NCBI GenBank assembly: GCA_035628535.1
Contig: DASPJQ010000833.1
Span: forward strand, 1-38,586
Direction: 5' to 3'
Source: Flavobacteriales bacterium
Lineage (GTDB): Bacteria > Bacteroidota > Bacteroidia > Flavobacteriales_D > UBA2798
DNA: 38,586 nucleotides
The notes under the pieces are model-generated. The model was not told the DNA's origin and searched no databases. It saw only the letters and a list, made by a program, of their open reading frames with translations. Below, one piece after another: positions 7,272 to 32,535 of the stretch; positions within the stretch are counted from its first letter, which is position 1, and every line of letters starts with the position of its first letter. Both the position numbers and the translations under genes were made by a program.

Positions 7272-7345
7272 CTATTTAGGCTGCCTTTTATACCAGCTAT
7301 AGAGTATATACCTGTGCAATACTTTTAGTTCATCTTGTGTTATAA
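7272..7345 (-). pseudogene. remnant of the 3-prime end of an excisionase-like HTH gene (copy A of a 4-member repeat family)
   Basis: The minus strand reads LITQDELKVLHRYILYSWYKRQPK*, compared with IRTQDEIQSTAQVYNLYNRHKKAS* at the end of the intact gene 12958-13296. At DNA level 7304-7340 matches 12991-13028 at about 32 of 38 positions (tatatacctgYgcaRtacttt...tcatcYtgtgt). Confidence 0.45.
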
Positions 7346-7353
7346 GGAAGGTC

Positions 7354-7629
7354 ATGTCGTATTTTTGTTGGGACATGACTCTAAATATTAAAACTAAAAT
7401 TGAGGCTGAAAAAAGAATTAAGGTCTCCCCCTTCAGAAAGGAGATCAGGAAAACTACGCCTCATAAACGCAATAGTTATTTCGAGATTATTTATTTAACA
7501 GCCGGTAAAGGCTATCATAGGATTGATTCAAAAAAATATATCGTATGTGTTCGTAAAGAGAATGTACCTTTTATCCAATCTGACATCCCTCAGCTAAGAT
7601 TATCTCCTATCAGATACAATAAACAATGA
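7354..7629 (+). pseudogene. AraC-family regulator, N-terminal fragment only
   Basis: SPFRKEIRKTTPHKRNSYFEIIYLTAGKGYHRIDSKKY is the cupin-like ligand-binding start of a Bacteroidota AraC subfamily. The ORF stops after ~90 aa and has no HTH domain. Confidence 0.55.
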
Positions 7630-8066
7630 GGCTGCTCTCGAAAATAACTCACACAGACAATTCTAAAACTAGCATTTTGATTCGGTTAATGGTAGGTGCT
7701 GTTTTTTTATCCGAAGGAATTCAGAAATTTCTTTTTCCTGACGCGGTGGGAGCCGGGCGTTTTGAAAAGATCGGATTTGATAATCCTGAATTTTGGGCAG
7801 CCTTTACCGGCTGCTCTGAAATTATCTGTGGTAGTCTTGTTTTAATAGGATTTCTAACAAGGCTTGCTGCCTTTCCTTTGTTTTTTATTATGATCGTGGC
7901 ATTTATCACCACAAAATATCCCATTCTTATAAATAAAGGGTTTTGGTCTATGGCGCACGAATACCGAACAGATTTTGCCATGACCATTGGAAGTATATTT
8001 CTTTTGATTAGAGGTGGAAGAGCATTAAGTATTGATAAACTGATCACGAATAAGCTATGGAAATAG
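7626..8066 (+). CDS. DoxX family membrane protein
   Basis: The product is 146 aa with four TM helices. LIRLMVGAVFLSEGIQKF and FTGCSEIICGSLVLIGFLTRLAA are typical of DoxX. Confidence 0.75.
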   Translation: MRLLSKITHTDNSKTSILIRLMVGAVFLSEGIQKFLFPDAVGAGRFEKIGFDNPEFWAAFTGCSEIICGSLVLIGFLTRLAAFPLFFIMIVAFITTKYPILINKGFWSMAHEYRTDFAMTIGSIFLLIRGGRALSIDKLITNKLWK

Positions 8067-8830
8067 TTATTATTTCAATTGTGGCATTTGTTGTCGCAAT
8101 TCTTACATTCTTCTCCGGCTTTGGACTTGGAACGATTCTCACTCCCGTATTTATGATATTTTTTCCGGTAGATCTTGCGATTGCGCTTACCGGAATTGTT
8201 CACTTTTTAAATAATATATTTAAACTGGCTTTAGTTGGAAGGAAAGCTGATAAAGAAATTCTGATCCGGTTCGGGATTCCTGCAATTATAGCCGCTGCAA
8301 TAGGCGCATGGTTGCTATTAAAGATTCCTGACGTTAAGCCTCTGTTTTCCTATCAGTTATCAGGGAAAACCTTTGAGGTTTACCCTGTAAAGTTTATTAT
8401 TTCTCTTCTTTTAATATTTTTTGCCATCCTTGATCTTGTTCCTTTTTTGAATAAGTTACATTTCGGAAAGGAAAAGTTACCGCTAGGAGGAATACTAAGC
8501 GGATTCTTCGGTGGTCTCTCCGGCAATCAAGGCGCATTGAGAAGTGCATTCCTGATTAAAGCAGGATTGGCAAAAGAAGTATTTGTCGCAACCACTGTCG
8601 TAATTTCTTGTTTTGTTGATCTCACAAGGCTATCCGTTTATGCAACAAGATTTATAAAGTCGGGATTGGAAGAAAATATTGGATTAATAAGCATTGCCAC
8701 TCTATCTGCCATTGCAGGGTCGTTTATAGGCAATAGATTATTGAAGAAGGTCACTTTAAAATTCATTCAGATACTTGTAGCAATAATGCTTATTATGATA
8801 TCAATAGCCTTGGGTGCAGGATTAATATAA
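8057..8830 (+). CDS. TauE/SafE (TSUP) family anion permease
   Basis: The product is 257 aa and polytopic, with an internal duplication carrying G-rich motifs (FFSGFGLGTILTP and GFFGGLSGNQGALRSAFL). Confidence 0.8.
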   Translation: MEIVIISIVAFVVAILTFFSGFGLGTILTPVFMIFFPVDLAIALTGIVHFLNNIFKLALVGRKADKEILIRFGIPAIIAAAIGAWLLLKIPDVKPLFSYQLSGKTFEVYPVKFIISLLLIFFAILDLVPFLNKLHFGKEKLPLGGILSGFFGGLSGNQGALRSAFLIKAGLAKEVFVATTVVISCFVDLTRLSVYATRFIKSGLEENIGLISIATLSAIAGSFIGNRLLKKVTLKFIQILVAIMLIMISIALGAGLI

Positions 8831-8847
8831 AAACAAAAGACAGAAAT

Positions 8848-9552
8848 ATGAGAAAATCAAATCGAACATTTTTTAAAGGAACTTTTCTTTTAATACTTTT
8901 AACTTTTACCACCGAAAGTTTCGGTTTTTGGGTGGTAAATTTTGGAACAGCGAGAACATTAGCACCCAGGAAAGTTGGTTTTGCAGCGGGAATGGGCGGA
9001 CAAATGGTATTTTTAGGCGATCCCCAACTTACCAGTGCATTTTTCACAATACCTCATGCAGGCTTCCGGTTCGGTCTTATCAATAGACTTGACGCAGGCT
9101 TACGCCTTGCACCAATACCGCTTCCGTTTTCCACAGTCGGTCCGGGTTTTGGAGTTAATTTAGATGTAAAGGTTTGCCTTACGAAACCTGAAAGCAAGAT
9201 AGATTTTGCTGTGGTTGTCGGTGCCGGAGGTGCTCACGTATTAATTGAAGACAAGACGCGATACGCTTACAGTCCTAACGTTGCCATTTTAACCACATAT
9301 AATATTAACGAAACAACGCACTTTACCACGATGGGCCGTTTTGTAAATCTTGCTATTCCAACAGCTCCTTTGGGCGCAAATAAAAATTTCGTTAACATAT
9401 CCGGAGTTTCGTTTGGTCTTAAAAAAGACATTCGTTCAAATATTTCCATCCTACCTGAAGTGGGTGCATATTGGTATGATGGTCAAATTGGCGGTACGGG
9501 AAAAAGCGGGCCAGGATTTCAGTATGGATTGATGATAGCGACAAGCTTTTAA
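8848..9552 (+). CDS. putative outer-membrane beta-barrel protein
   Basis: It has a signal peptide (FLLILLTFTTESFG), alternating beta-strand-like segments and a C-terminal aromatic residue (LMIATSF). Confidence 0.5.
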   Translation: MRKSNRTFFKGTFLLILLTFTTESFGFWVVNFGTARTLAPRKVGFAAGMGGQMVFLGDPQLTSAFFTIPHAGFRFGLINRLDAGLRLAPIPLPFSTVGPGFGVNLDVKVCLTKPESKIDFAVVVGAGGAHVLIEDKTRYAYSPNVAILTTYNINETTHFTTMGRFVNLAIPTAPLGANKNFVNISGVSFGLKKDIRSNISILPEVGAYWYDGQIGGTGKSGPGFQYGLMIATSF

Positions 9553-9699
9553 AAAAATATTAGTTTTAGCGACAACTTTTTTCCGAAAAGCCAATTTTAG
9601 TTTCCCAAATCGAATGTTTATGACAATTTGACACACTTGTGCCTTGTAATAGTAACGGCCTGATATTTGTCCCATTGACATACAAAACCACCTAAATTT

Positions 9700-11148
9700 A
9701 TGGCCAAATTTGACCAGCCTATTGAAAGTTTTATTAAAAAGTTTGTTACTGACTTAGAGGAGGGCAATGTTGCCATTTTTGCGGGAGCCGGCATGTCAGT
9801 ATCTGCTGGATTTGTAAACTGGTCCGAACTATTACGCGACATCGCGAACGATCTGCATTTAGATGTTGATAGGGAATGGGATTTAATCTCTATTGCCCAA
9901 TATCATTTTAACGAAAAGCGCAATAGAGATGCCATCAATCGAGCAATTTTAGAAGAGTTTTCAGCAAAAACCGAATCAACGGAAAACCACAGAATTTTAG
10001 CCAAACTGCCAATCCATACTTACTGGACTACCAATTATGACATTTTAATTGAGCAGGCATTGAAAGAGGCGTTTAAGATTGTTGATGTAAAATATGACAA
10101 AGACCAGCTTCAACTAGCCAAGCCTCGCAGAAACGCTACAGTCTATAAAATGCACGGTGATGTTGAGCATCCTACAAAGGCAATTATCACAAAACAAGAT
10201 TTTGAGACTTACCATAGGACCCATGAACCATTTATTACGGCTTTAAGCAGCGATCTCACATTCAAAACTTTTTTGTTTATAGGTTTCAGCTTTACAGACC
10301 CTAATCTGGACTACGTGCTTAGCAGGTTAAGCATCCAGTTTGGTGATAATGGCAGGCAGCACTACTGTTTTATTCGTAAGTGCAGCCGGGCAGATTATAA
10401 AACTGAGGACGAATATAACTATGAATTAAGGAAACAGACTTTAAAAGTAAATGATCTCAAACGATATAAAATTGAGGCTCTACTGATTGACAAGTATTCT
10501 CAAATTACTGAGATATTAAGTGAGATCGAGCAGCGTTTTAAAAAGCGAACAATTTTTATCTCAGGAAGCGCAGAAGAATATGGTACAATGGATTCTCATG
10601 CGGCCCAGAATTTTATTCATCAGCTCACTAAACAACTGGTCTTTAATGGAAACACAATAGTAAACGGTTTTGGCTTAGGAGTTGGTAGTGCGGTAATTAA
10701 CGGTGCTTTAGATGCCGTGTATGAGAAACCGCACAAGCATAGCGAAGAACAGTTAATAATGCGTCCATTCCCTCAATTTCCTACGGGTGATAAAGACCTC
10801 AAGGTTCTCTGGCGCGAATACAGATATAAAATGATCCCCTATGCGGGAATTTCTATTTTTATTTTTGGGAACAAGAAAGATCCTAAAACGGGTAAAATAA
10901 TTATTGCTAATGGTGTCCGGCAGGAATTTGAAATCGCCACTGAATTAGGACTTATTCCTATACCTGTTGCGGCCACTGGTTACATGGCTCAACAGATTTA
11001 TGAAATTGTAATGGCTGAACCTGGCAAATATTATAAGGCGTACGAACACCAGGTGGTGCCTATCATTAAGGAACTGTCGGACCCAAATCTTCAATCGGAA
11101 GAAATAATAAAAAAAATAATAGACATCATTAAAATTCTTAAAACCTAA
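9700..11148 (+). CDS. thsA: Thoeris ThsA, SIR2 NADase domain fused to a SLOG ligand-binding domain
   Basis: The N-terminal half carries SIR2 motifs FAGAGMSVSAGF, TTNYD and YKMHGD. The C-terminal half is a Rossmann-like SLOG domain (TIFISGSAEEYG, VNGFGLGVGSAVINGAL, FIFGN). The 482-aa size is ThsA-like, and three TIR genes follow. Confidence 0.85.
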   Translation: MAKFDQPIESFIKKFVTDLEEGNVAIFAGAGMSVSAGFVNWSELLRDIANDLHLDVDREWDLISIAQYHFNEKRNRDAINRAILEEFSAKTESTENHRILAKLPIHTYWTTNYDILIEQALKEAFKIVDVKYDKDQLQLAKPRRNATVYKMHGDVEHPTKAIITKQDFETYHRTHEPFITALSSDLTFKTFLFIGFSFTDPNLDYVLSRLSIQFGDNGRQHYCFIRKCSRADYKTEDEYNYELRKQTLKVNDLKRYKIEALLIDKYSQITEILSEIEQRFKKRTIFISGSAEEYGTMDSHAAQNFIHQLTKQLVFNGNTIVNGFGLGVGSAVINGALDAVYEKPHKHSEEQLIMRPFPQFPTGDKDLKVLWREYRYKMIPYAGISIFIFGNKKDPKTGKIIIANGVRQEFEIATELGLIPIPVAATGYMAQQIYEIVMAEPGKYYKAYEHQVVPIIKELSDPNLQSEEIIKKIIDIIKILKT

Positions 11149-11154
11149 AAATCT

Positions 11155-11643
11155 ATGGCTAGAAGAGTATTTTACAGCTTCCATTACGATAATGATAGCT
11201 GGCGTACCTCACAAGTACGTAACATTGGGGTTATTGAAGGTAACAGACCTGCACCAGACAATGACTGGGAAGCTGTTAAAAAAGGCGGTGATCCAGCAAT
11301 TAAAAGATGGATTGACAACCAAATGTATGGTCGATCCTGTACCATTGTTCTTGTAGGGTCCAATACTGCGGGAAGAAAATGGATTGAATACGAAATAAAG
11401 AAGTCCTGGGAAGAAGGAATGGGTGTTGTTGGAATTAGAATCCACAATCTTAAAAACTATGCTCAACAACAATCATATTGGGGGAATAATCCGTTCGCTT
11501 TAAGCGCAAATGGCATCTGGTTGGAGGACAAAATCAGTTTACATAATCCACCATATGTTGACAGTAAGGATGTTTATAATTATATAGCAGATAACATTGG
11601 AAATTGGACTGAGGAAGCAGTTAGAAACCGTAATAGGTATTAA
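11155..11643 (+). CDS. thsB: Thoeris ThsB, TIR-like (MTH538/DUF1863-type) protein
   Basis: It starts MARRVFYSFHYDND, with TIVLVGSNTAGRKWIEYEI carrying the conserved Glu context. It begins 7 nt after the thsA stop. Confidence 0.75.
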   Translation: MARRVFYSFHYDNDSWRTSQVRNIGVIEGNRPAPDNDWEAVKKGGDPAIKRWIDNQMYGRSCTIVLVGSNTAGRKWIEYEIKKSWEEGMGVVGIRIHNLKNYAQQQSYWGNNPFALSANGIWLEDKISLHNPPYVDSKDVYNYIADNIGNWTEEAVRNRNRY

Positions 11644-11645
11644 GT

Positions 11646-12194
11646 ATGTCAATTTTTACTAAAGCAAGTTTTGAGGCAGCAGCGAATAGAAATGCAGGAT
11701 ATAAAAATTTCAGGGCCTACCTTGAGGAAAACAGGAAGTCATATAGATCAACTAAAACAACTAGTGTTTTTTTATCGCACGCACATACTGATAAAGACAT
11801 TGTACAGCAAGCTGTGACTTTTTTTAGCACCCTTGGAATAAGTATCTATGTGGATTGGATGGATGAAACTATGCCTGATAAGCCCAACGGTGATACTGCT
11901 AAACGGATTAAAGACAGAATTCAAGCCAATGATAAATTCATTCTATTGGCTACGAATGCTGCGGTTGCCTCCAAATGGTGCAACTGGGAGTTAGGTATTG
12001 GCGATTTAAACAAATTCGATAAAGGAAAGCTAGCCGTTTTGCCTTTGGCGGATAACAGTGGCACATGGCAAGGAAATGAATACTTGCGGCTTTATCCGAG
12101 GATAGAGTACGGTTCCACGAATTCTAGTGATTTATGGGTTTGGCACCCAGATCGGTTTTTACCAGAATATTTAAGAACTTGGTTAATGAAATAA
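11646..12194 (+). CDS. thsB: Thoeris ThsB, classical TIR-domain protein
   Basis: Motifs VFLSHAHTDKD, FILLATNAAVASKWCNWELG and a TIR beta-alpha pattern are present. It starts 3 nt after the preceding stop. Confidence 0.75.
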   Translation: MSIFTKASFEAAANRNAGYKNFRAYLEENRKSYRSTKTTSVFLSHAHTDKDIVQQAVTFFSTLGISIYVDWMDETMPDKPNGDTAKRIKDRIQANDKFILLATNAAVASKWCNWELGIGDLNKFDKGKLAVLPLADNSGTWQGNEYLRLYPRIEYGSTNSSDLWVWHPDRFLPEYLRTWLMK

Positions 12195-12195
12195 T

Positions 12196-12813
12196 ATGGC
12201 AAGAAAGGTATTTTTCAGTTTTGCTTATGACGATGTCAAGAACTTTAAGGTTAATGTTGTTCGCCAAAGTTGGCTTTTAAATAAAGAAAATACATTTGTT
12301 GATGGTTCTATTTGGGAAACGGCAAAAAAAAAGGACCCTGAATCTCTCAAAAAACTGATAAATGAAGGGTTAAATAATACATCGGTTACCACCGTTTTAA
12401 TTGGAGAAGATACCGCAAATAGGACATGGGTCAACTATGAAATAATAAAGAGTTTTGACCGGGGAAATGGAATTCTTGGTATTCATATTAATAGAATAAA
12501 GGGGCGAACCGGATTAACAACCAGGGGACAAAATCCACTTGATCGCCTTGGACTTAAAATAGCTGAAGATGGCAGTAAAATATATTTCTTTGAGTTGTTA
12601 AAAAACAAATGGGTTCCCTATAATTATTTACCTGTGATTAACAATAAACAGTCGAACACTATTTATTTTGGGGATAGTTGGTGGAGTGGCAACCAGTGGG
12701 GTGAGTCTTTCCGATTCTCAGAACTTTTTGAAACGTACTGTTGGGCTTTCAATGAGGGATATACAAACTTTTCGGATTGGGTGGAGGCCGCAGCCAAGCA
12801 GGCCGGTAGATAA
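12196..12813 (+). CDS. thsB: Thoeris ThsB, TIR-like (MTH538/DUF1863-type) protein with C-terminal extension
   Basis: MARKVFFSFAYDD and TTVLIGEDTANRTWVNYEI make it a paralog of 11155-11643. It starts 2 nt after the preceding stop. Confidence 0.75.
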   Translation: MARKVFFSFAYDDVKNFKVNVVRQSWLLNKENTFVDGSIWETAKKKDPESLKKLINEGLNNTSVTTVLIGEDTANRTWVNYEIIKSFDRGNGILGIHINRIKGRTGLTTRGQNPLDRLGLKIAEDGSKIYFFELLKNKWVPYNYLPVINNKQSNTIYFGDSWWSGNQWGESFRFSELFETYCWAFNEGYTNFSDWVEAAAKQAGR

Positions 12814-12815
12814 AT

Positions 12816-12860
12816 ATTTATGTTCTACTAGTTTTCATATTTAGGAAGAAGTTAGATTGT
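12816..12860 (-). repeat. degenerate copy (S1) of the xis-like gene 3-prime-end repeat family
   Basis: agttttcatatttaggaagaagttag matches agttttcatagtttgaagaaggttag at 32509-32534. The minus-strand reading NFFLNMKTSRT* compares with NLLQTMKTYCKYIL in the other copy. Confidence 0.4.
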
Positions 12861-12957
12861 AAAAATATGTGTTTTGTATTGCCACATTTCTAATACTTTC
12901 GAAGGAAAAAAGTGGTTGAATTAACTCTAATAATACTGAACCGCGACTCAAAAAACG

Positions 12958-13296
12958 CTATGATGCCTTTTTATGTCGGTTATACAGGTTATATACCTGC
13001 GCAGTACTTTGAATCTCATCCTGTGTCCTGATCTTCCCGCTTTTTACCCATTCGGTTAATTCCTGTTTGTCAAAGTACAATTTGTTGCCCTTTTTGGAAT
13101 GGGGGATAAGTCTTTTGGATGTCTTTTCGTAGATAGTATTTACCTCCAGCTTTAAGAATTTTGCGGCTTCCTGTATATCCATCGGTTCACTGGATGGTTT
13201 TGTATCCCCGTTTAGCCCGGTGAGCACCTCGCTGACGATTGATTTCAAAAGTGTCCTAAATTCTTCCTCTGTGAAACTGGTTAAAATTGTTGCCAT
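12958..13296 (-). CDS. helix-turn-helix DNA-binding protein, excisionase (MerR-like) family
   Basis: The central segment MDIQEAAKFLKLEVNTIYEKTSKRLIPHSKKGNKLYFDKQELTEWV is the typical excisionase-family HTH of Bacteroidota mobile elements. Confidence 0.75.
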   Translation of the reverse strand: MATILTSFTEEEFRTLLKSIVSEVLTGLNGDTKPSSEPMDIQEAAKFLKLEVNTIYEKTSKRLIPHSKKGNKLYFDKQELTEWVKSGKIRTQDEIQSTAQVYNLYNRHKKAS

Positions 13297-13297: not shown

Positions 13298-14104
13298 TTA
13301 TTTGATAGATTTATTTGTAATGTCTTGGTTAACCTGTATGGATAGCTTGATTATGGAGTTATACAGTGCTGTCAAGTTATTTTTGTCTGAAATTTCCTGC
13401 AATTGTTCCTGAGTAAGCGATTTTCTTATTTTTTCCGCACTGTAGCCTGTAAGCAGTTCAAATGCCTGGGCAGCCTTATTGTTATTTAGGTAATCGCCCG
13501 AAAAAGTGATTTGTGTTTTTTGCAAGTAATGAATAAGCAGCGTTGTCTGCTCCTGACTAAGACAAGTAAGCCTGTCACCTTTTTGCCGTTTCGGCCTTCC
13601 CTTAATTACCGGAAAACCGCTTGGAACTTTATATTCGGGTTGTTTAATACACTCTGACCACAGGTTGACAGCCTGCAATTGCAAAGGAGTAAGCAAAGAA
13701 CCATGTTTGAGCAGTAAGAGAGATATGAAACGCTGGGTTAATCCGGCATCAAGAGCGCATTGTAAAAATTGTCCGATTTGCAACAAGTCCAATTGCCTCA
13801 CACGATATGCAAACAGCGTATCAAAAAAAGGATCTGTTGAAACAATTGGCACATTTGCCCAAATATCCAGCCATTGCCCACGACCCAGATTAATAAACCG
13901 TTCAGGATAGACAGGCATTATATCGGCCATTGATGCTGACCTTTCAGAAGCTAAAATATCCTTCTCCGATGCAACCAGTCTCTTTGCATGTAAAAAACAG
14001 ATAATTACCTCTTTATAATCACGGAAACTACCTTTAAAGTTTAGATATTCCCAAGTGGTCAGATGGTTTAAGTTGATTTGTACCATAACGCTGCAAACCA
14101 ACAC
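13298..14104 (-). CDS. hypothetical protein co-transcribed with the xis-like gene (possible regulatory protein)
   Basis: This 268-aa ORF ends 1 nt before the xis-like start. An alternative start is at 14086 (MVQINL). I recognised no motif with confidence; a loose resemblance to RteC-like C-termini is not claimed. Confidence 0.55.
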   Translation of the reverse strand: MLVCSVMVQINLNHLTTWEYLNFKGSFRDYKEVIICFLHAKRLVASEKDILASERSASMADIMPVYPERFINLGRGQWLDIWANVPIVSTDPFFDTLFAYRVRQLDLLQIGQFLQCALDAGLTQRFISLLLLKHGSLLTPLQLQAVNLWSECIKQPEYKVPSGFPVIKGRPKRQKGDRLTCLSQEQTTLLIHYLQKTQITFSGDYLNNNKAAQAFELLTGYSAEKIRKSLTQEQLQEISDKNNLTALYNSIIKLSIQVNQDITNKSIK

Positions 14105-15743: not shown

Positions 15744-15882
15744 TTTTGGATTTTTTAATTAAATACTTTGTTGCTTAGAGACTTTTTTCTGGCAGAAAAA
15801 AGTCAAAATTTTTACATAGCTCGCTTTGTAATTACCTCCTTTCTTTACTTAATTTAAATAAGGAGCGAGGGTACTTACATAA

Positions 15883-22694: not shown

Positions 22695-22704
22695 TTGTAA
22701 GATC

Positions 22705-23525: not shown

Positions 23526-23527
23526 CC

Positions 23528-24340: not shown

Positions 24341-24378
24341 CCGCAACTCCATCACCATTCACGCACAAATAATTCAAT

Positions 24379-24561
24379 ATGAGCAAATTTACCTACAACA
24401 TCACCCTTTCAGCGGTGAGTGAAAAAGAAGCTGAATCAAAAATGCGCGCGCTTACAGTGCTGGCAGCGCGCCTTACTGAAAAGGAAATTTCCAAACTGGC
24501 CGACATCATTCAAAACGACCCGCAAAAAACTGCCCTGGCAAAAAAAGCACTCGGAGTTTAA
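24379..24561 (+). CDS. small helical hypothetical protein
   Basis: This 60-aa ORF is in the operon frame and lies 3 nt before the next start. Confidence 0.45.
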   Translation: MSKFTYNITLSAVSEKEAESKMRALTVLAARLTEKEISKLADIIQNDPQKTALAKKALGV

Positions 24562-24564
24562 TCC

Positions 24565-25356: not shown

Positions 25357-25358
25357 AC

Positions 25359-26339
25359 ATGCAAACAGTACAAACCCATGATACAGTTATGCCGGGTGCA
25401 ACCTCTGCGGCAAATCCGGCAACCGCTGCGCTGGTTCCTGAAAAAAAGAAGAACAGTAAAGTAAGAGCAGCCATCATTGGGGTGAGTGTGGTGGCGGCTG
25501 GGGTTTGCGGGTATTATTTTTTGTGGCCGCTTTTCAGGCGCAAAGGCACCTCAAATAACAGCAGCGTTGCACCGCAAGCCACCAGTAACACTTCAACCCA
25601 AACCAACAGCTACACCCCTTCCCAAACCAGCACTGCACCTGCAAAATCTGTTACCCCGGCACGAAACGATAATTTTCCTCTGAAGCAAGGCAGTAAAGGA
25701 CCAAACGTAACCATGCTTCAAAACGCGCTTATTGCCAGATATGGCAAAAGTATCCTGCCCAAATACGGTGCTGATGGAGATTTTGGAGCAGAAACAGTTG
25801 CCGCATTGAAAAGCAGGGGACTTTCCACGCCAGTAGATCAGGCAACATTTATTTCACTCACCGAAGGAACTAAAATAGATCCTGTTCAGTACGCCAAAAA
25901 CATTGCAGCGGCTGTACTATTGGGATTCGATAAAGTGCTGCCCTTGCTTCAAAAGATTAAAACAGCCCAGCAGTACAAGGACGTTTCCAACCAGTTCAAG
26001 GAAATACGTATAGGACTTATCCGTTACCAAAGCCTGCTTTCTGCCATGTTTCGCCTTTATACAGAATCAGGCCAGCAAAGCCAGTTAAGAAAGGCATTCA
26101 CAAACATGGGCTTAATCTATAAACCCGATGAGGATACCTGGAAGCTGCCTGATAATCTTTCGGGGTTTGAATTAATCACTACGCAGATCACGCACGTGTG
26201 GCCCGATCCCCAAACTGCTGTCCAGGTACCACCCAACATGGTACTGGGGCAGGAAATCGGGCGGCAGGATGATTTTGTCGCATTTGAAAACGGGGGACGC
26301 AGATTCCTTGTACCTGCTGCACATGTGCGCTATACCTGA
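25359..26339 (+). CDS. membrane-anchored peptidoglycan-binding domain protein
   Basis: A TM helix (AAIIGVSVVAAGVCGYYFLW) and a Ser/Thr linker are followed by a PG_binding_1-like repeat (LKQGSKGPNVTMLQNALIARYG...DGDFGAETVAALKS). Confidence 0.7.
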   Translation: MQTVQTHDTVMPGATSAANPATAALVPEKKKNSKVRAAIIGVSVVAAGVCGYYFLWPLFRRKGTSNNSSVAPQATSNTSTQTNSYTPSQTSTAPAKSVTPARNDNFPLKQGSKGPNVTMLQNALIARYGKSILPKYGADGDFGAETVAALKSRGLSTPVDQATFISLTEGTKIDPVQYAKNIAAAVLLGFDKVLPLLQKIKTAQQYKDVSNQFKEIRIGLIRYQSLLSAMFRLYTESGQQSQLRKAFTNMGLIYKPDEDTWKLPDNLSGFELITTQITHVWPDPQTAVQVPPNMVLGQEIGRQDDFVAFENGGRRFLVPAAHVRYT

Positions 26340-26371
26340 CACTTTTTTTAAACACCTAAAATCTATCAATT

Positions 26372-26824
26372 ATGAGGCTAATACGCTACATCGCGGTACA
26401 CTGTACCGACACCCTTGCATCAGCAACGGTTGAATCCATTAAGAACTACTGGAAAAATCACCTGAAATGGAAACGTCCCGGCTATCACTACATCATCAAG
26501 GCCGATGGCGAGGTGGTAAAGCTGCTTGACGAAGAAAAAATTTCAAATGGCGTTTTGGGTTTTAACCCTGTTACGGTAAACATTTGCTACATCGGTGGCC
26601 GCACAAAGGAAAAAACCAAAATTGATACGCGTACCGAGGCGCAAAAAGAATCCATGTTTGACCTGCTGGTTGAACTTTCCGAGCGATACCCTGAAGCAGA
26701 GATCAAGGGACATTGCGAGTTTCCCGGTCAGGGGGGCAGGACCTGTCCCAACTTCAATGTGAAGGAATGGCTTAGGAATTACACGCCTAAACTGGAGGAC
26801 AACGACCTGGATATTGCCGCTTAA
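26372..26824 (+). CDS. N-acetylmuramoyl-L-alanine amidase (amidase_2/PGRP, T7-lysozyme-like)
   Basis: Motifs IAVHCTDT, GYHYIIKADGEV, NICYIGG and GHCEF...TCPNFNV are present. Confidence 0.85.
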   Translation: MRLIRYIAVHCTDTLASATVESIKNYWKNHLKWKRPGYHYIIKADGEVVKLLDEEKISNGVLGFNPVTVNICYIGGRTKEKTKIDTRTEAQKESMFDLLVELSERYPEAEIKGHCEFPGQGGRTCPNFNVKEWLRNYTPKLEDNDLDIAA

Positions 26825-27480
26825 TGCTTGGAGACCTAAAAGCCATATTGTCCGAGAAAAGTTTTGTGCTGTACACACGGCCCTACGAACTGAATATTGT
26901 GGGCCTGCGGGGCAATTCCACGGTGCCAAACAGGTTTGATGACCAGATACACGTGTTCTATAAAACCGGGCCTGTAGCGTGGAATTACCATGTTTACAAC
27001 GCCACCACAGATCCGGGTACCTACTGGCTGAAAAACCCAATGATGCAAAAAGGCACTGCCATACTTGAGCAGGGACAATACCTGAACTGCTATGCACTGG
27101 GAATGCACAGGGGCGAATACAATGCGCTGGTACAGGTTGGGCCGGTGGTGGTCATAAGGGATTATGACCGCGATGCGGTGCTGGACTTTTTCAATGGCTC
27201 GCGTGACAAGGGCTATCATGGTATAAACATCCACCGCGCTTCTGTGAACGGTACAACAAAATACGTTGACAAATATTCTGCCGGGTGCCAGGTCTTTGAG
27301 AACGCCAGTGATTTCAACCAGTTTATACGGCTTTGCGGTGAGCATTCCACGCGTTACGGAAACCGCTTTACCTATACCCTGCTTGATTTCAGAAGCGTGC
27401 AAAGGCAAAAACTAAAGCGCATAGCTGTGGGTTCTCTATTCGCTGCTTCGGGCCTTACAGCTTACATCTATTTGAGTTAA
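26824..27480 (+). CDS. putative cell-wall peptidase with YkuD-like His/Cys motif and C-terminal TM anchor
   Basis: GINIHRAS...KYSAGCQVF resembles the L,D-transpeptidase-fold catalytic H...GC motif. The C-terminal helix is IAVGSLFAASGLTAYIYL. The TAATG start overlaps the amidase stop. Confidence 0.5.
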   Translation: MLGDLKAILSEKSFVLYTRPYELNIVGLRGNSTVPNRFDDQIHVFYKTGPVAWNYHVYNATTDPGTYWLKNPMMQKGTAILEQGQYLNCYALGMHRGEYNALVQVGPVVVIRDYDRDAVLDFFNGSRDKGYHGINIHRASVNGTTKYVDKYSAGCQVFENASDFNQFIRLCGEHSTRYGNRFTYTLLDFRSVQRQKLKRIAVGSLFAASGLTAYIYLS

Positions 27481-27499
27481 ACTTTTAAATCCATACACA

Positions 27500-27721
27500 A
27501 TGAAACAAAACGAAAAAAACAAAACAAAACGCGATGAACTGAATGCCTTCCTTGATGAACTCAGCCAAATCCTGCTTGGTTCACTCAGGGAAATTCTTTC
27601 AACTGAGCCGTCAAGGGAACAACAGTCACCGCCATCGCCTGAACCCCCGCTGGTGATACAGGTCGTTTTCAAACCAAAGAAAGGGGGAATTCTGCGCAGG
27701 TTTATCAACTGGCTCTGGTAA
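27500..27721 (+). CDS. small hypothetical protein
   Basis: This 73-aa product has a charged N-terminus and an SPPSPEPP segment. It is adjacent to the next start. Confidence 0.4.
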   Translation: MKQNEKNKTKRDELNAFLDELSQILLGSLREILSTEPSREQQSPPSPEPPLVIQVVFKPKKGGILRRFINWLW

Positions 27722-27970
27722 ATGAAAAAGGGCTTTGACATTTTAAGGGACAAGAACGGGTATTTCAATATCCGGGAAACAGTGACGCTTGTATTTGTTG
27801 TTGTGATCCTTGTTAGCTGGATTGGGCAGCAGTTCTTCGGACTTGCTGTACCGGAATATATATTTTACTCGTTCGTGTCCCTTGTCGGGAGTGGCTGTTT
27901 TGGATACTCCTTTGAACGAAAACAGATAAAAAACAAATTCAAAAATTTAAAAGAAGATGACAGCGATTAA
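27722..27970 (+). CDS. holin-like two-TM protein
   Basis: Two TM helices (TLVFVVVILVSWIG and IFYSFVSLVGSGCFGY) precede a highly charged tail (KQIKNKFKNLKEDDSD). It sits within the lysis block. Confidence 0.45.
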   Translation: MKKGFDILRDKNGYFNIRETVTLVFVVVILVSWIGQQFFGLAVPEYIFYSFVSLVGSGCFGYSFERKQIKNKFKNLKEDDSD

Positions 27971-28604
27971 ACAATTATTATTTACCGCACTTGCATTAAG
28001 CCTTTTGGTGAGCCTGTATTTCTTTTCCTGCTCCCCGGCTAATGATCCTTCCACTCCCAGCACAAACGTCCCTGCAAAGCAGATCAGGGCAAAGCAACAA
28101 AACATTGCAAAGGTTTATCAGCTAAGGGCGCAAGGGCTACAGGCCAAAAATGACAGCCTGCAAATGCAGATTTCTCGTAGCCAAGTCGATTTAAAAGTAT
28201 TGCGCAAACAAGTACGCGAATTGAAATTTTCGCTTTCTCAAAAACTGAAGGTTAAAACTGAAAATGATACGGGACAGTTGGCACCAGAACGCGCTAGTTT
28301 AAAAACGGAAGTGGCCAGCCTCATTAGTTTAACAGACCAGCAGGACAGTATTTGCCAGCAAACTATCGGGCAATACCAGCAGCTTGTATCAGTTAAGGAC
28401 ACAATCATTCAAAGCTGTATGTACCGCACATTTCAGACTGACAGCCTGCTTTCCGAATCACTGGGAGTACAGCTTCAACTGGAAAAACAGTTTAATGCGC
28501 AGGCCAGACAGCTAAAAAGAAGAGGGAATGCCGTCAGTGCTTTAAGTGCCGGGCTGCTTGTATTCTCTACTTCGTCACTCATTCTTCTGTTAACCCGCCA
28601 CTAA
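27957..28604 (+). CDS. unimolecular-spanin-like protein (lipoprotein signal, coiled coil, C-terminal TM)
   Basis: It has an N-terminal signal with Cys (LLVSLYFFSCSP), a long Gln/Leu-rich coiled coil and a terminal TM helix (LSAGLLVFSTSSLILLL). Confidence 0.45.
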   Translation: MTAIKQLLFTALALSLLVSLYFFSCSPANDPSTPSTNVPAKQIRAKQQNIAKVYQLRAQGLQAKNDSLQMQISRSQVDLKVLRKQVRELKFSLSQKLKVKTENDTGQLAPERASLKTEVASLISLTDQQDSICQQTIGQYQQLVSVKDTIIQSCMYRTFQTDSLLSESLGVQLQLEKQFNAQARQLKRRGNAVSALSAGLLVFSTSSLILLLTRH

Positions 28605-28610
28605 AAAAAT

Positions 28611-28793
28611 ATGAAGGAAAAATTGATTGTTTCCTCCTGTTCCCTGATCGCCTCGCTGGCCTGTTATTTCTATGCCCGGCATGTAGGTAAGGATGAAGTG
28701 CCCTATGTGATGATTGGCGGCTTTATCGGGGCTTACATCGGGGAAACGCTGGTAAGTTTCATCAGTAAAGACAACGATAATAACCCTGACTGA
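28611..28793 (+). CDS. small two-TM membrane protein
   Basis: IVSSCSLIASLACYFY and VMIGGFIGAYIGETLV are followed by an acidic tail. Confidence 0.4.
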   Translation: MKEKLIVSSCSLIASLACYFYARHVGKDEVPYVMIGGFIGAYIGETLVSFISKDNDNNPD

Positions 28794-28800
28794 AAACGCT

Positions 28801-29565
28801 ATGGCTATAAAAATTACAGACCAAGGTTCCAACCTCAAAATTGAAGTTGATGATTCGGCAAGGCTGGTTGCAAAGTCTTCGGTAAAAAGTGTTGCCATTA
28901 TCGGGGATTTTATCAAGATTCAAAGTGACGCATGTTGCGCGCCCTGGGATTATTTGCCTTTCAGTGAAATCAACGAACCGGAAACTGAAACCATTGAGCA
29001 AATGCGCGATGCAATAGGCGACCTGTTATTTCAGTACCAACCCTCAACACCAACGGAGGCCGGACTAGCAACCGAGGCCCGGCAAAATGAAGCTATTGGC
29101 AAGCTGGAGGAGATAAAGACTACAATTACAACCAACCTTTCGGGAAAAGCTACCGAGGCATTGCAGAACGACCAGGCAACCGCGCTGCAAAATATTTTCA
29201 CGCTTCTGGGAGCAATCCAGACCACTGTCACCAGCGCAGCGGCCGCGCAGGCTACCATTGGTAAGCAAAATGATACCATCACCTTAATTAGCAACCTTGG
29301 CGCACAGCTCACCTTGCTACAGGGGCTTTTGATTTCGCTCATTGATGAACACCTGTTTTTGCTGCCTCCTTCGCGCACAGAGGACGTAACTGCTGAATTA
29401 CGCTATGAAGGTTTTGCCTTGCCCGGCTCACTCGATGCTGCGCCTGTCTGGGCAATCCGAAAACGGGCTGTATTCCCGCCTAACATAGTGGTTTATTCCT
29501 GGGCAGCCGGCTCGCGGACTAAATCACAGGTTTGGAACAATCGCGCAATGCTGGCCTATATGTAG
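28801..29565 (+). CDS. fibre/spike-like protein with three-fold ATEA(R/L)QN-type repeats
   Basis: The central segments ATEARQNEAIGKLEEIKTTITTNL, ATEALQNDQATALQNIFTLLGAIQTTVTS and ATIGKQNDTITLISNLGAQLTLLQ resemble repeats seen in phage fibre proteins. The C-terminal domain is beta-rich. Confidence 0.5.
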   Translation: MAIKITDQGSNLKIEVDDSARLVAKSSVKSVAIIGDFIKIQSDACCAPWDYLPFSEINEPETETIEQMRDAIGDLLFQYQPSTPTEAGLATEARQNEAIGKLEEIKTTITTNLSGKATEALQNDQATALQNIFTLLGAIQTTVTSAAAAQATIGKQNDTITLISNLGAQLTLLQGLLISLIDEHLFLLPPSRTEDVTAELRYEGFALPGSLDAAPVWAIRKRAVFPPNIVVYSWAAGSRTKSQVWNNRAMLAYM

Positions 29566-29605
29566 AATTTTTTACTCAATTATCTAACCTCTTAACACCA
29601 TTCAC

Positions 29606-30019
29606 ATGAAATCAAAAAGTAAATCCCGCAAATGTGCAACACCCCTGCATATCCGGCAGGCTGGTCATAACCTGAAGGTCAGGCACAGTTCAAAGGCGGG
29701 AACAATTCTTGCCACACTTGGCAAACGCGACAAGATCAGGCGTGTCAATGCCGGGTGCGTGGACGGGCTGGCAGGGGTGGTAAAACTCAAAACCACCCGA
29801 ACAAAGAATGCCACCAAAACCCTGTATGCTGTACCTGTCAGCGAATTTAAAAAAATTCAGGGATGTTCGATGAAAACTACGCGTAAAGGCCGCAGGCTTG
29901 CAGGTACAACAGGCGGAACTTTCAGCCTGAGTGCAAAACAAAAGCGTAACCTGCCTCCTCAACTGCAAAAGGCAATTATCAACCATCACCGAAAGCAAGG
30001 TAAACGAATTGTGAATTAA
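29606..30019 (+). CDS. highly basic Lys/Arg-rich protein (possible nucleic-acid-binding)
   Basis: This 137-aa product is very rich in K/R throughout (KSKSKSRK, KGRRLAG, HHRKQGKR). A strong terminator follows it. Confidence 0.5.
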   Translation: MKSKSKSRKCATPLHIRQAGHNLKVRHSSKAGTILATLGKRDKIRRVNAGCVDGLAGVVKLKTTRTKNATKTLYAVPVSEFKKIQGCSMKTTRKGRRLAGTTGGTFSLSAKQKRNLPPQLQKAIINHHRKQGKRIVN

Positions 30020-30027
30020 TCACCAAC

Positions 30028-30070
30028 AACCTGCTGCAATGAAATAGTTGCAGCAGGTTTTAATCTTTTG
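30028..30070 (+). terminator. rho-independent terminator
   Basis: A perfect 12-bp stem (aacctgctgcaa/ttgcagcaggtt) with an 8-nt loop is followed by a T-rich tail. Confidence 0.75.
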
Positions 30071-30073
30071 AAC

Positions 30074-30673
30074 ATGCAGCAGGAAGAAAACTTAAACCAG
30101 CAGGTCAGGGAGGAAATCAAAAAGCTGAAAGAGGAATTAGGATACAAAAGCCTCTCAGGTGACAAGCCTGATAAAACACCCGAAGCTGAAAACGAAGGTG
30201 AGAAGATAACCGAAGGCCCTCATATTCCTCAGATGAAACTCTCCTATAACCGCCCGCCTTTAACCGATATGGTCCAGATCGACCGCAGCGAGGTAGCGGC
30301 AAAATACCTGAAAGCCCTTTTTGAACCCGGCAGTATTGATCTTCAGGAACGGTTTATTGTTCTTTTTCTCAACAGGGCAAATTACGTGCTGGGTTATCAG
30401 ACGCTGGCTTTCGGGGGATTGACAAGCGTGGTAGTTGATGTAAGGCTCATACTGGCTTCGGCCATTAAGTGCCTTTGCACTTCCCTTATCCTTTGCCATA
30501 ACCATCCAAGCGGGAACTTAAAGCCCAGTACAGGCGACCGCCTTGTTACCGACCAGCTTAGAAATGCGGCCAAATACCATGAGATTTCCGTTGTAGACCA
30601 TATTATTCTCACCAGTGAAGGTTACTTCTCAATGGCTGATGAAGGAATAATTAATGCCGAATATTATGTATAA
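30074..30673 (+). CDS. radC: RadC-like JAB/MPN domain protein (DUF2466)
   Basis: FIVLFLNRANYVLGYQTLAFGGLTSVVVDVR ... LILCHNHPSGNLKPSTGD is the JAMM-like HxHPSG motif of RadC. Confidence 0.85.
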   Translation: MQQEENLNQQVREEIKKLKEELGYKSLSGDKPDKTPEAENEGEKITEGPHIPQMKLSYNRPPLTDMVQIDRSEVAAKYLKALFEPGSIDLQERFIVLFLNRANYVLGYQTLAFGGLTSVVVDVRLILASAIKCLCTSLILCHNHPSGNLKPSTGDRLVTDQLRNAAKYHEISVVDHIILTSEGYFSMADEGIINAEYYV

Positions 30674-32456
30674 AGTACAGCAATACGAAAAATACCTGCC
30701 GGAATTTACCGAATCAATGCTCCACCGTTATAATCTTCTGAAATCATTCAGCAATAATTTTAAAGAGGAAAGCGTGGCAGCGAGGGAGCTTGACAGGTTA
30801 TTGAGTGAACAACTGGAACAAAAATTCAAAGGCAGGGCGAGCAGCAGTAATCCCAAAGTGTCAACAAAACGAAATAACGGCTCAAAAACAGATGAAGCAG
30901 CAGCGTATGCAGCCATGCGTAAGTACCTGGAACCTTTGGTCGGACAGGATTACAGCATCAGGGACATTCAGGACATCGCAAAAGATTCAACGCCTGAAAT
31001 TACATTTAACATCAGGGGTGATAAAATTCATGTTACCAAACTGGCAGGCCGGAAAGTAAAATACAATTTCGGCCTTCGCGCATTTTATGTTCAACTGCGT
31101 GATGCGCTGGGCATTGCTCCTGCCAGCCTTCCGGAACTGGATAAAATTTCAAAACAAGAGACAACGGCGAAAAAAAAGCCTGTGCCGCAGAAAAAACAAA
31201 CGGATGCTGCCGCGGAGTCCGAAATTCTGCCAGACAAGCAGGAGAAAACCCCTGAAATGGTAGAAAGACTCAGTGAAGAGGTGCGTTTTATCAAGCGGTA
31301 TGCTTTGCTGGATGGAAAAGTAAAGACCCCTGAGCAGATGCGGGCATTTACCAATGCTGTTAGAAAGGCCATACTGGAAAAGCGCATCAGGAAGTTTTCG
31401 CCCTATGCCGAACAGATCATTTACATTCAGGACAGGCTTGTGAATTGGTGCAATTCGGTTAAAACCCCTGAAACTGTCGCAGTCAATCCCGAAGTGTTGC
31501 AGGAGTTCAGGAACATTGCCAGCACCGAACAATTGCTTCTGTCAGGAACCTATCTCAAACGGTACATGAACATTCAGGGCAAAGAACTGGACAAGGAAAA
31601 AGCCGGGCGCCTGCACGATCTAATTAAAAAAGCAATTCAGCAGGATAAGATCACCAAAAGCGATCCATACCGCCAAAGGCTCGAAAATGCCCTTAAATCG
31701 CTTCACAGATTCGTAAAATCGGCCAAGGCTACCGATACCCTCAAAATGCACCCAACGGCCTTAAATGGCATAAAAACGGCCCTTGAAGGCTGTCCCTGTG
31801 AGGAGGAGGATTTGGGATACATGGGAAAAAAGGCCGGGGCACATGCAGGTGTTACGCCACATGTGCCCCAAATAGTAATAAGCAGCGTTGATTTTGAAAA
31901 CTTTCAAATCCAGACCCTCGGCCTTTTTGGCCGCTGGTATAATTTTATCGGAGATGCCAGCCGGGGATTCAATGCCATGATCTTTGGCAAACCCAAGCTG
32001 GGAAAAACCTACCTCGCTATTGACTTCGCAGGCTATCTGGCTCATTTTTTCGGTCCTGTTTTGTACGTAACAAGGGAGGAAGGGTTTAGCGGAACGTTCC
32101 AGCAAAAGATCATCGAACAGGGCGTGGCTCACCCGGAGTTATATATTGCCAGCGAAATACCGGAAGATTTTGCCCCTTATGATTTTGTATTTTTTGATTC
32201 GGCAACCAGGTTAAACTTTGTTCCCGGTGATATCGGCCATTACAAGCGTCTTTATCCTGGCAAAACCTTCGTGTACGTGTTTCAGGCCACCAAAGACGGT
32301 AATTTCAGGGGCTCGCAGGAGTTTGAGCATGATGTAGACGTTGTTATTGAAGTTTATGATCTTGGTAAAGCGCGGCAGTATGGCAGATTCAATCAGGGCA
32401 GTGAGATGAATATTTTCGACAATGACGAAACGATAGATTTTCAGCAGGCTGCGTAA
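30654..32456 (+). CDS. 600-aa protein with C-terminal RecA/RadA-like P-loop ATPase domain (replication/recombination candidate)
   Basis: Walker A is GKPKLGKT and Walker B is YDFVFFDS. The RadA/Sms-like strand FQATKDGNFRGSQEFEHDVDVVIEV is present. I recognised nothing in the N-terminal ~400 aa. Confidence 0.65.
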   Translation: MPNIMYKVQQYEKYLPEFTESMLHRYNLLKSFSNNFKEESVAARELDRLLSEQLEQKFKGRASSSNPKVSTKRNNGSKTDEAAAYAAMRKYLEPLVGQDYSIRDIQDIAKDSTPEITFNIRGDKIHVTKLAGRKVKYNFGLRAFYVQLRDALGIAPASLPELDKISKQETTAKKKPVPQKKQTDAAAESEILPDKQEKTPEMVERLSEEVRFIKRYALLDGKVKTPEQMRAFTNAVRKAILEKRIRKFSPYAEQIIYIQDRLVNWCNSVKTPETVAVNPEVLQEFRNIASTEQLLLSGTYLKRYMNIQGKELDKEKAGRLHDLIKKAIQQDKITKSDPYRQRLENALKSLHRFVKSAKATDTLKMHPTALNGIKTALEGCPCEEEDLGYMGKKAGAHAGVTPHVPQIVISSVDFENFQIQTLGLFGRWYNFIGDASRGFNAMIFGKPKLGKTYLAIDFAGYLAHFFGPVLYVTREEGFSGTFQQKIIEQGVAHPELYIASEIPEDFAPYDFVFFDSATRLNFVPGDIGHYKRLYPGKTFVYVFQATKDGNFRGSQEFEHDVDVVIEVYDLGKARQYGRFNQGSEMNIFDNDETIDFQQAA

Positions 32457-32489
32457 ATGCAGCATAACGTTCTTTGAAATATTGACATA

Positions 32490-32535
32490 TAAGTATATAC
32501 TTGCAGTAAGTTTTCATAGTTTGAAGAAGGTTAGG
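32490..32535 (-). repeat. degenerate copy (S2) of the xis-like gene 3-prime-end repeat family
   Basis: aagtatatacttgcagtaagttttcatagtttgaagaaggttag has a minus-strand reading NLLQTMKTYCKYILICQYFKER, compared with ...KVLHRYILYSWYKRQ in copy A. It shares agtatatac with copy A and agttttcata...gaagaag.ttag with S1. Confidence 0.4.

What the first reader, a model, noticed from the sequence alone, without database searches (positions are those of the whole stretch)
7272..32535. Four same-orientation copies of the 3-prime end of an excisionase-like gene mark the junctions between accessory modules
The last ~70 nt of the intact xis-like gene (12958-13030) recur in degenerate form at 7272-7345. There the match is about 32 of 38 positions over the core tatatacctgYgcaRtacttt..tcatcYtgtgt, and the minus-strand reading is still ...TQDELKVLHRYILYSWYKRQPK*. 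Further copies lie at 12816-12860 and 32490-32535, which resemble each other (agttttcata..gaagaag.ttag), and 32490-32535 also shares agtatatac with the 7272-7345 copy. Each copy coincides with a change of gene content. Core genes give way to the AraC remnant at 7.3 kb. The Thoeris operon ends at 12.8 kb. The phage-like gene block ends and very AT-rich cargo begins at 32.5 kb. One reading follows from integrative elements that target the 3-prime end of a gene: these leave the displaced old end at the far side of the insert. The layout [remnant 7272-7345][DoxX...Thoeris][rebuilt 3-prime end plus gene body 12958-13296] is exactly what insertion of the Thoeris-bearing block into the xis-like gene end would give. 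A second reading is serial accretion and decay of related elements at one hotspot.
Basis: seen in the sequence. Interest (0 to 1): 0.65.

Follow-up and report, generated by a model that had tools for sequence, protein, structure and literature searches.

The report
Gene-end scar beside a defence-cargo hotspot
Only two of the four claimed repeats are real: an intact excisionase-like gene and a 60-base broken leftover of the same gene end bracket a 5.6-kb Thoeris-carrying cargo block, sitting in a slot where related Bacteroidota genomic islands carry other cargo or none.

Summary
Two of the four "copies" are real. The segment 7281-7340 matches the 3' end of the intact xis-like gene (12963-13026): gapped score 51, against 26 +/- 2.4 for shuffled queries searched over the whole window. 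It is a frameshifted pseudogene relic. The copies at 12816-12860 and 32490-32535 do not resemble the xis end above chance (p 0.05-0.7), and their likeness to each other is not significant.

The relic lies next to a ~245-nt conserved non-coding arm (7031-7276). That arm is the left end of a ~31-kb tyrosine-integrase island (about 7034-38208), which is absent as a whole from one soil metagenome that carries the same core genes.

Related islands show the same arm in three states:
- directly after an intact xis (L008, no cargo);
- after a Hachiman operon that follows xis (L006);
- 8.9 kb downstream of xis (L024).

The gap between xis and the arm is therefore a family-wide cargo hotspot. The relic marks where xis once abutted the arm.

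No other occupied hotspot (L006, L024), and none of 40 related loci scanned, shows such a relic. The cargo block encodes no recombinase. The island's own att repeats are different sequences.

The best reading is a scar of recombination between related islands, not a recurring attachment site.

The parts
7015..7049 (.). Candidate attL. It is an imperfect direct repeat of 38183-38214 and holds the identical 10-mer AATAGTTAAT at 7034-7043. Homology with the L008 island ends at about 7033.
   Evidence: score 30, p=0.002 in an end-limited search. (only two matches in the window, one at each end). (divergence point from L008).
7031..7276 (-). Conserved non-coding end of the island, inferred to be the P' arm. 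It contains TCTTTGAAATATTGCCGGG, the paired motif GTGACA-N5-GTGACAA (7112-7129) and TTGCCTAAACA (7059-7069).
   Evidence: nhmmer with a 3-arm profile hits the window only here (E 1e-64). It also hits L008 (5e-65), L006 (1e-40) and L024 (3e-12). The motif occurs exactly twice in the window, at 7112 and 37986.
7281..7340 (-). Frameshifted relic of the last ~64 nt of an xis-like (HTH_17) gene, colinear with the arm exactly as the intact gene is in L008.
7346..12957 (+). Cargo block in the hotspot:
- unverified ORF 7354-7629
- DoxX 7626-8066
- TauE 8057-8830
- 234-aa unknown 8848-9552
- Thoeris type I: ThsA (SIR2+SLOG) 9700-11148 and three ThsB (TIR) at 11155-11643, 11646-12194 and 12196-12813
No recombinase gene is present.
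   Evidence: Pfam, PADLOC, NCBIfam.
12958..13296 (-). Intact xis-like gene, 112 aa, with HTH_17 and the TIGR01764 excisionase-family domain. Its last ~64 nt (12963-13026) are the second real copy.
   Evidence: It aligns full-length with 37 homologs.
13298..14104 (-). 268-aa protein of unknown function. In relatives it is the conserved partner of the integrase and xis.
   Evidence: blastp/tblastn. 135 clusters at 50% identity in 1.84 billion proteins. No Pfam, PHROG or NCBIfam hit. The structure model was too poor to use (pLDDT 46).
36705..37877 (-). Tyrosine integrase (Arm-DNA-bind_5, SAM_5 and Phage_integrase domains), 47% identical to the integrases adjacent to p28x-xis in relatives.
37986..38003 (+). 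Second copy of the paired motif GTGACA-N5-GTGACAA, on the integrase side. Inferred to be an arm-type site.
38183..38214 (.). Candidate attR, the partner of 7015-7049.

Best explanation
The window holds a ~31-kb integrative island (about 7034-38208) of a Bacteroidota family. The family is built around three genes: a tyrosine integrase, a ~280-aa unknown protein and an HTH_17 xis-like gene.

In this family the xis-like gene points at a conserved ~245-nt non-coding end of the island (inferred P' arm). The gap between the xis stop codon and that arm is a cargo hotspot. Here the hotspot holds DoxX, TauE, an unknown gene and a type I Thoeris operon.

The 60-nt segment at 7281-7340 is what remains of an xis gene that once abutted the arm. 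It was cut off when the cargo, together with a closely related intact xis, was joined in. This happened by recombination between two related islands, in one of two ways:
- replacement, with one homologous crossover in the shared backbone and one illegitimate joint at 7341-7353; or
- tandem integration followed by a single deletion that removed the first island from mid-xis onward, including the internal att.

The relic is a one-off scar, not a recombination site that recurs at module borders.

Shown: the repeat, its position, the conserved arm, the variable cargo, and the whole-island presence/absence. Inferred: the arm's role in integration, the att core, and the recombination route.
For: - The A-C homology is far above chance, and A is frameshifted.
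- Relic plus arm are colinear with L008, where an intact xis is followed at once by the arm.
- The same arm lies after Hachiman in L006 and 8.9 kb after xis in L024.
- Other relatives carry a DnaE-like gene (L077) or a CRISPR array (L038) after xis.
- The integrase, the ~280-aa protein and xis are contiguous in most of the 20-odd related loci long enough to show all three genes.
- No second copy of the xis 3' end occurs in 40 related loci totalling 324 kb.
- The cargo block has no recombinase.
- Only two copies of the end repeat and of the GTGACA pair exist, one at each island end, and none is internal.
- Run X2 covers the core at 1-6902 and 38430-38586 but none of 6912-38430. Runs X1 and X3 carry the whole island. 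No run carries part of it.
- A and C are closer to each other than either is to any homolog's 3' end (scores 51 vs <=30). This fits two close alleles.
- Tandem accretion followed by decay is a documented route for integrative elements (PMC5704250, section 2.3).
Against: - No donor or intermediate was found. The closest xis homolog is only 63% identical, so the recombination route is inferred from the end product.
- The same structure would arise from site-specific insertion into the xis end.
- The empty chromosomal site was not captured, because the X2 contigs stop short of the junction. The att core is therefore a candidate only.
- The comparison loci are metagenomic contigs, and two of them end inside or just after the arm.
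Confidence: 0.6

Rival explanations
1. First reader's reading 1. A small integrative element carrying DoxX...Thoeris inserted site-specifically into the 3' end of xis. It brought a replacement gene end (12958-13026) and displaced the old end to 7281-7340. The two copies are then attL/attR-like sites of that element, which has since lost its integrase or uses one in trans.
For: - There are direct repeats at both ends of the block, in the same orientation, and the gene is restored to full length.
- The similarity stops at the stop codon on one side and ~64 nt into the gene on the other, as expected for an attP that mimics a gene end.
- An identical 10-mer, TATATACCTG, lies in the middle.
- L008 shows the uninterrupted arrangement.
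- Elements that target gene 3' ends, and even genes of other mobile elements, are known (PMC5704250).
Against: - No recombinase of any kind is found in 7346-12957.
- The island integrase's end repeats and arm motifs are unrelated to the xis end and have no third copy.
- L006 and L024 have cargo in the same slot without any duplicated xis end, and the L006 junction lies at the stop codon rather than 64 nt upstream.
- The copies are only 83% identical, with three indels.
- No joint was seen in the contigs of three runs, though contigs would miss rare forms.
Confidence: 0.15
2. In-situ duplication. The cargo entered a single island by illegitimate recombination or repair synthesis that duplicated ~64 nt of the target. 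The outer copy then decayed as a pseudogene.
For: - A and C are closer to each other than to any database homolog.
- A carries frameshifts, as expected for a decaying copy.
Against: - A 64-nt target duplication is not produced by known transposition or integration chemistry.
- 17% substitutions plus three indels in 60 nt would need long neutral decay, yet every neighbouring cargo gene is intact.
Confidence: 0.1
3. All four segments are degenerate copies of the xis end and mark every module junction. This is the finding's headline claim.
For: - D shares AGTATATAC with A, and a gapped alignment of about 25 matches can be drawn by eye. A-D p=0.047 before correction.
- B and D share 24 of 28 positions.
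Against: - C-B p=0.70, A-B p=0.38 and C-D p=0.13.
- B-D with flanks gives p=0.21. The B-D score lies within the range of shuffled controls.
- The arm profile and the family proteins find nothing at 12.8 kb or 32.5 kb.
Confidence: 0.03

Closest known systems
Cargo and defence hotspots at fixed positions in families of integrative elements (SXT/R391 ICE hotspots, P2/P4-like prophage and satellite hotspots, pipolins). This comparison rests on general knowledge; for pipolins see PMC11551731, listed.
   Same: - A conserved backbone gene lies on one side and a conserved element end on the other.
- Content between them differs among relatives: nothing, Hachiman, Thoeris, a CRISPR array, or non-defence genes.
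   Different: - The backbone here is a Bacteroidota set of integrase, ~280-aa unknown protein and HTH_17 gene. I found no description of it in the papers searched.
- The slot lies at the very end of the island, between xis and the arm.
- One occupant left a gene-end scar.
Tandem accretion and decay of integrative elements (CIME-ICE/IME arrays, ICESt1/ICESt3 at the fda 3' end; reviewed in PMC5704250, section 2.3)
   Same: - A truncated copy of a gene end lies at the far side of inserted DNA.
- Related elements share one site.
- Decay removes the mobility genes.
   Different: - In those arrays the duplicated gene end belongs to the chromosomal target and each unit keeps att sites. Here the duplicated end belongs to the island's own xis gene.
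- No internal att copy survives.
- The block has no att-like borders recognised by the island's integrase.
Bacteroides mobilizable elements of the NBU1 type (tyrosine integrase IntN1 plus the small Orf2x excisionase and further excision genes; PMC5704250 and references in it)
   Same: - Bacteroidota tyrosine integrase with an N-terminal arm-binding domain.
- A small excisionase-family HTH protein and an extra conserved protein are encoded next to it.
   Different: - No relaxase, oriT or primase gene was recognised in the window.
- The integration site is not a tRNA gene.
- Homology of the ~280-aa protein to NBU1 genes was not tested.

Membership tests
Integrative element that targets a gene 3' end and leaves the displaced end (attL/attR direct repeats) | Direct repeats of the gene end at both borders of the insert | tested here: met
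   7281-7340 vs 12963-13026, same orientation, score 51 against a null of 26 +/- 2.4.
Integrative element that targets a gene 3' end and leaves the displaced end (attL/attR direct repeats) | A site-specific recombinase encoded inside the insert | tested here: not met
   No recombinase or transposase family was found in any ORF of 7346-12957 (Pfam, PADLOC, NCBIfam).
Integrative element that targets a gene 3' end and leaves the displaced end (attL/attR direct repeats) | The same repeats recur at independent insertions in relatives | tested here: not met
   There is no second xis 3' end in 40 related loci totalling 324 kb. L006 and L024 carry cargo in the slot without one.
Integrative element that targets a gene 3' end and leaves the displaced end (attL/attR direct repeats) | Excision joint or circle detectable | not testable with these tools
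   Only assembled contigs of three runs were available. No joint was seen, but contigs drop rare forms.
Cargo hotspot of an integrative-island family | Conserved flanks on both sides in several independent islands | tested here: met
   An xis homolog lies on one side and the arm profile hits on the other in the window, L008, L006 and L024.
Cargo hotspot of an integrative-island family | Unrelated content between the flanks, including an empty state | tested here: met
   0 nt in L008; Hachiman (HamA plus helicase) in L006/L007; 8.9 kb of T9SS, PKD and HTH genes in L024; DoxX, TauE and Thoeris here.
Tyrosine-integrase genomic island | Integrase with catalytic and arm-binding domains at one end | tested here: met
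   36705-37877 matches Phage_integrase, Phage_int_SAM_5 and Arm-DNA-bind_5.
Tyrosine-integrase genomic island | Flanking direct repeats and an empty site in related genomes | tested here: inconclusive
   The repeat 7015-7049 / 38183-38214 has p=0.002 and occurs only at the ends. Run X2 has the core but none of 6912-38430. The empty junction itself was not covered.
Thoeris type I defence system | ThsA with SIR2 and SLOG (STALD) domains, plus one or more TIR-domain ThsB | tested here: met
   ThsA matches PDLC00407 at E 3e-205, with Pfam SIR2_2 and STALD. Three ThsB match at E 1e-51 to 1e-67.
Excisionase (recombination directionality factor) | Excisionase-family HTH domain and genetic linkage to an integrase | tested here: met
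   TIGR01764 scores 30.3 bits against a cut-off of 28.8, and HTH_17 matches. The gene is adjacent to the integrase in most relatives. Activity in excision was not tested.

The most novel reading that the evidence does not exclude
The last ~60 nt of xis could be a working secondary recombination site. The island's own integrase and xis would use it to capture and release cargo cassettes, an integron-like slot in Bacteroidota islands. On that view the relic and the intact gene end are the two borders of a still-mobilisable Thoeris cassette.
Probability: 0.06. Interest if true: 0.75.

Novelty: new member of a known kind. Interest (0 to 1): 0.35.

Why it matters
- It shows where cargo enters a family of Bacteroidota integrative islands that I did not find described. 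The slot is between the xis-like gene and the conserved island end, and the conserved ~245-nt arm gives a simple search handle for it.
- The slot carries known defence systems (Thoeris, Hachiman, a CRISPR array). Unknown genes found there in other members are therefore reasonable candidates for new defence functions.
- The relic is a rare preserved footprint of how such cargo is exchanged.
- For the scan itself, it is a caution: short AT-rich resemblances at module borders (copies B and D) fell within chance.

Tried and rejected
- Copies B and D as xis ends: rejected by pair-limited and window-wide nulls.
- Extension of the A-C homology into the flanks or the gene body: none found.
- TTGCCTAAACA (7059 / 38027) as the att core: set aside, because homology with L008 continues through it to ~7033. 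It probably lies inside the arms.
- Further relics of xis, the ~280-aa protein or the integrase in the window, sought by tblastn with 155 family proteins: only noise. A weak integrase-like hit in the 358-aa ORF did not hold up.
- Close relatives of the island: a genome-contig scan gave only two distant hits. IMG/VR gave none for the 600-aa ATPase and one distant xis. Exact-protein look-ups returned only the source sample.
- Excision joints in contigs: none credible. One 20-nt-sided joint, 21732/37372, looks spurious.
- tRNA and Rfam targets at the island ends: none.
- 'AraC remnant': no support from Pfam, NCBIfam, homolog search or PDB.
- Function of the 268-aa protein: the AlphaFold model was too poor to search (pLDDT 46).
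- 'Phage-like' block: the 660-aa protein has no hit in 50,697 phage records. The label rests only on endolysin-like genes and RadC.
- Similarity of the junction and intergenic segments to any related locus: none.
Full report
**Observation**

The window was mapped first.
- 1-6984 holds chromosomal genes: lycopene cyclase, a TonB-dependent receptor, a protein with a T9SS sorting domain, pyruvate kinase and a 141-aa ORF.
- From 7354 come an unverified 91-aa ORF, DoxX, TauE, a 234-aa unknown and a type I Thoeris operon, with ThsA (SIR2+SLOG) and three TIR-domain ThsB.
- A minus-strand operon runs from 15743 to 12958 and ends with a 112-aa HTH_17 / excisionase-family gene at 12958-13296.
- A plus-strand block at 16792-32456 contains three endolysin-like genes, RadC and an ATPase.
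- An AT-rich block at 32627-36447 has no family hits.
- A tyrosine integrase lies at 36705-37877.

**Which of the four copies are real**

The copy at 7272-7345 is real.
- It aligns with the end of the xis-like gene over 7281-7340 / 12963-13026, with 83% identity, four gap positions and a score of 51.
- Shuffled queries searched against the whole window give 26 +/- 2.4, with a maximum of 33. None of 300 random real segments reaches 51.
- The homology stops at the stop codon on one side and ~64 nt into the gene on the other. Neither flank is shared.
With the three indels removed, the relic reads ...IAQVY.LYSWYKKAA*, the tail typical of the family. It is therefore a decayed gene fragment.

The copies at 12816-12860 and 32490-32535 are not copies of the xis end.
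- Even with the search space limited to each pair, p is 0.70, 0.38, 0.13 and 0.047, uncorrected for 28 tests.
- Their resemblance to each other (score 31) lies within the range of shuffled controls. It is reached by about 1% of random segments, and it disappears when flanks are included, p=0.21.

**What the surroundings are**

Homologs of the xis-like protein are at most 63% identical. Their contexts, from 77 fetched loci, show a conserved set of three genes: integrase, a ~280-aa protein of unknown function, and the HTH_17 gene. In most relatives the three are contiguous and co-directional. In the window this set is split: 22.6 kb lies between the integrase and the 268-aa gene.

The paired motif GTGACA-N5-GTGACAA occurs exactly twice in the window, at 7112 and at 37986. 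An imperfect 32-35-nt direct repeat containing AATAGTTAAT occurs only at 7015-7049 and 38183-38214.

Three soil metagenomes hold the core genes.
- Two of them (X1, the source, and X3) hold the whole 7-38 kb region.
- The third (X2) covers 1-6902 and 38430-38586 but none of 6912-38430.
- No run holds part of the island.

The unit that comes and goes is therefore the whole ~31-kb island, and its left border is at ~7034, not at 7.3 kb.

**The key comparison**

The 245 nt between the island border and the relic (7031-7276) are conserved in related islands.
- In L008 this arm follows the stop codon of an intact xis homolog with nothing in between.
- In L006 it follows a Hachiman operon (HamA plus helicase) that itself follows xis.
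- In L024 it lies 8.9 kb downstream of xis, after genes for secreted PKD/T9SS proteins and an HTH protein.
- A profile built from three arms hits the window only at 7031-7276. It hits L008, L006 and L024 at E values of 5e-65, 1e-40 and 3e-12.
- Two further relatives carry other cargo after xis: an HTH gene and a DnaE-like polymerase in L077, and a CRISPR array in L038.

The gap between xis and the arm is thus a cargo hotspot of this island family. The relic in the window sits exactly where the intact gene sits in the empty state.

**Mechanism**

The end product is [arm][xis relic][cargo][intact xis][backbone]. It could arise in three ways:
1. recombination between two related islands, with one homologous crossover in the backbone and one illegitimate joint;
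2. tandem integration followed by a single deletion;
3. site-specific insertion into the xis end.

I favour the first two, for these reasons.
- The cargo block has no recombinase.
- The island's own att repeats and arm motifs are different sequences, and there is no internal copy of them.
- Neither of the two other occupied hotspots whose far end is visible (L006, L024), nor any of 40 related loci (324 kb), has a duplicated xis end.
- In L006 the outer cargo junction lies at the stop codon rather than 64 nt upstream.
- The two copies differ by 17% plus three indels. That is what two close alleles would show, and it is more than a recent duplication would.

Tandem accretion and decay is a documented route for integrative elements (PMC5704250, section 2.3). 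The site-specific reading is not excluded. It predicts a 5.7-kb circle or a recombinant joint, which assembled contigs cannot show.

**Comparison with known systems, and novelty**

The arrangement works like the variable hotspots of other integrative elements, and the scar resembles the truncated gene ends seen in accretion arrays. It differs in three ways: the duplicated end belongs to the island's own xis gene, no internal att survives, and the backbone is a Bacteroidota gene set for which I found no description in the papers searched. The 268-aa partner protein forms a modest family of 135 clusters at 50% identity, without annotation or a usable structure model.

I rate this as a new member of a known kind, of moderate interest. 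It gives a usable handle on a defence-carrying slot and corrects the finding's claim of four junction markers.

**Limits**

- All comparison loci are metagenomic contigs.
- The role of the arm and the att core are inferred from position, repetition and conservation.
- The empty chromosomal site was not captured.
- No close relative of this particular island exists in the collections searched.

Noticed in passing
L038:2670-3293: A CRISPR array starts inside the 3' tail of the xis homolog's ORF. It has a 47-nt repeat, GTTGTGATTTGCTTTCAAAACGTATCTTTGAGCTACTGATAAACAAC, with 30-nt spacers and at least 8 units running to the contig end. This is another kind of defence cargo in the same slot.
   Followed up: partly
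window 16318-16357: AAAAATGCGTAGAAATACGGT occurs twice in tandem, and its core CGTA-GAAA-TACG is palindromic. Assembly depth here is about 70, against about 9 for the neighbours. Contigs of all three soil runs diverge on both sides, so the motif is shared by many other sequences in those soils. It is absent from the 77 related loci.
   Followed up: partly
window 15744-16791: A 1-kb intergenic region between divergent operons holds two copies of a ~30-nt motif, AAGTAA[TC][AG]CCCACGCC...GTG.GCGT, at about 15920 and about 16130. There is no Rfam match. It could be a regulatory or non-coding RNA region.
   Followed up: no
window 32627-36447: An AT-rich block (GC about 32%, against about 46% to its left) lies between the endolysin/RadC block and the integrase. 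Its ORFs are 186, 502, 358, 76 and 80 aa, with no Pfam, PADLOC or NCBIfam hit. Given where it sits, these are candidate unknown cargo or defence genes.
   Followed up: partly
window 7346-7629: The ORF called an 'AraC remnant' has no homolog or family hit. The hairpin GTCATGTC-N13-GACATGAC (7352-7380) straddles its start codon, right at the relic/cargo joint. A minus-strand terminator-like hairpin lies at 7444-7406.
   Followed up: partly
window 14105-36704: In relatives the integrase and the ~280-aa gene are adjacent. Here 22.6 kb lies between them, and L024/L026 have 3.7 kb there. This suggests a second cargo site in the family.
   Followed up: partly
window 16792-32456: Support for the 'phage-like' label is thin. 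There are three endolysin-like genes, RadC, a weak tape-measure-like hit and an ATPase. The 660-aa protein has no tblastn hit in 50,697 phage records, and the 600-aa ATPase has no relative in IMG/VR. No capsid, portal or terminase gene was recognised.
   Followed up: partly
window 20505-20675: Three tandem repeats of 69-75 nt lie in the C-terminal part of the 660-aa ORF.
   Followed up: no
window 38224-38289: An inverted repeat (CCCTGAAGCGCAAAGCGA ... TCGCTTTCCGCTTCAGGG) lies just outside the candidate attR, in a stretch with no ORF.
   Followed up: no
L009, L013, L073, L075: These show a second island architecture: xis faces the ~280-aa gene and the integrase, and the cargo lies upstream of xis. 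That cargo includes type I restriction-modification, SMODS nucleotidyltransferases, KAP NTPase and HEPN/nucleotidyltransferase pairs. Weak arm-profile hits lie next to the integrase.
   Followed up: partly
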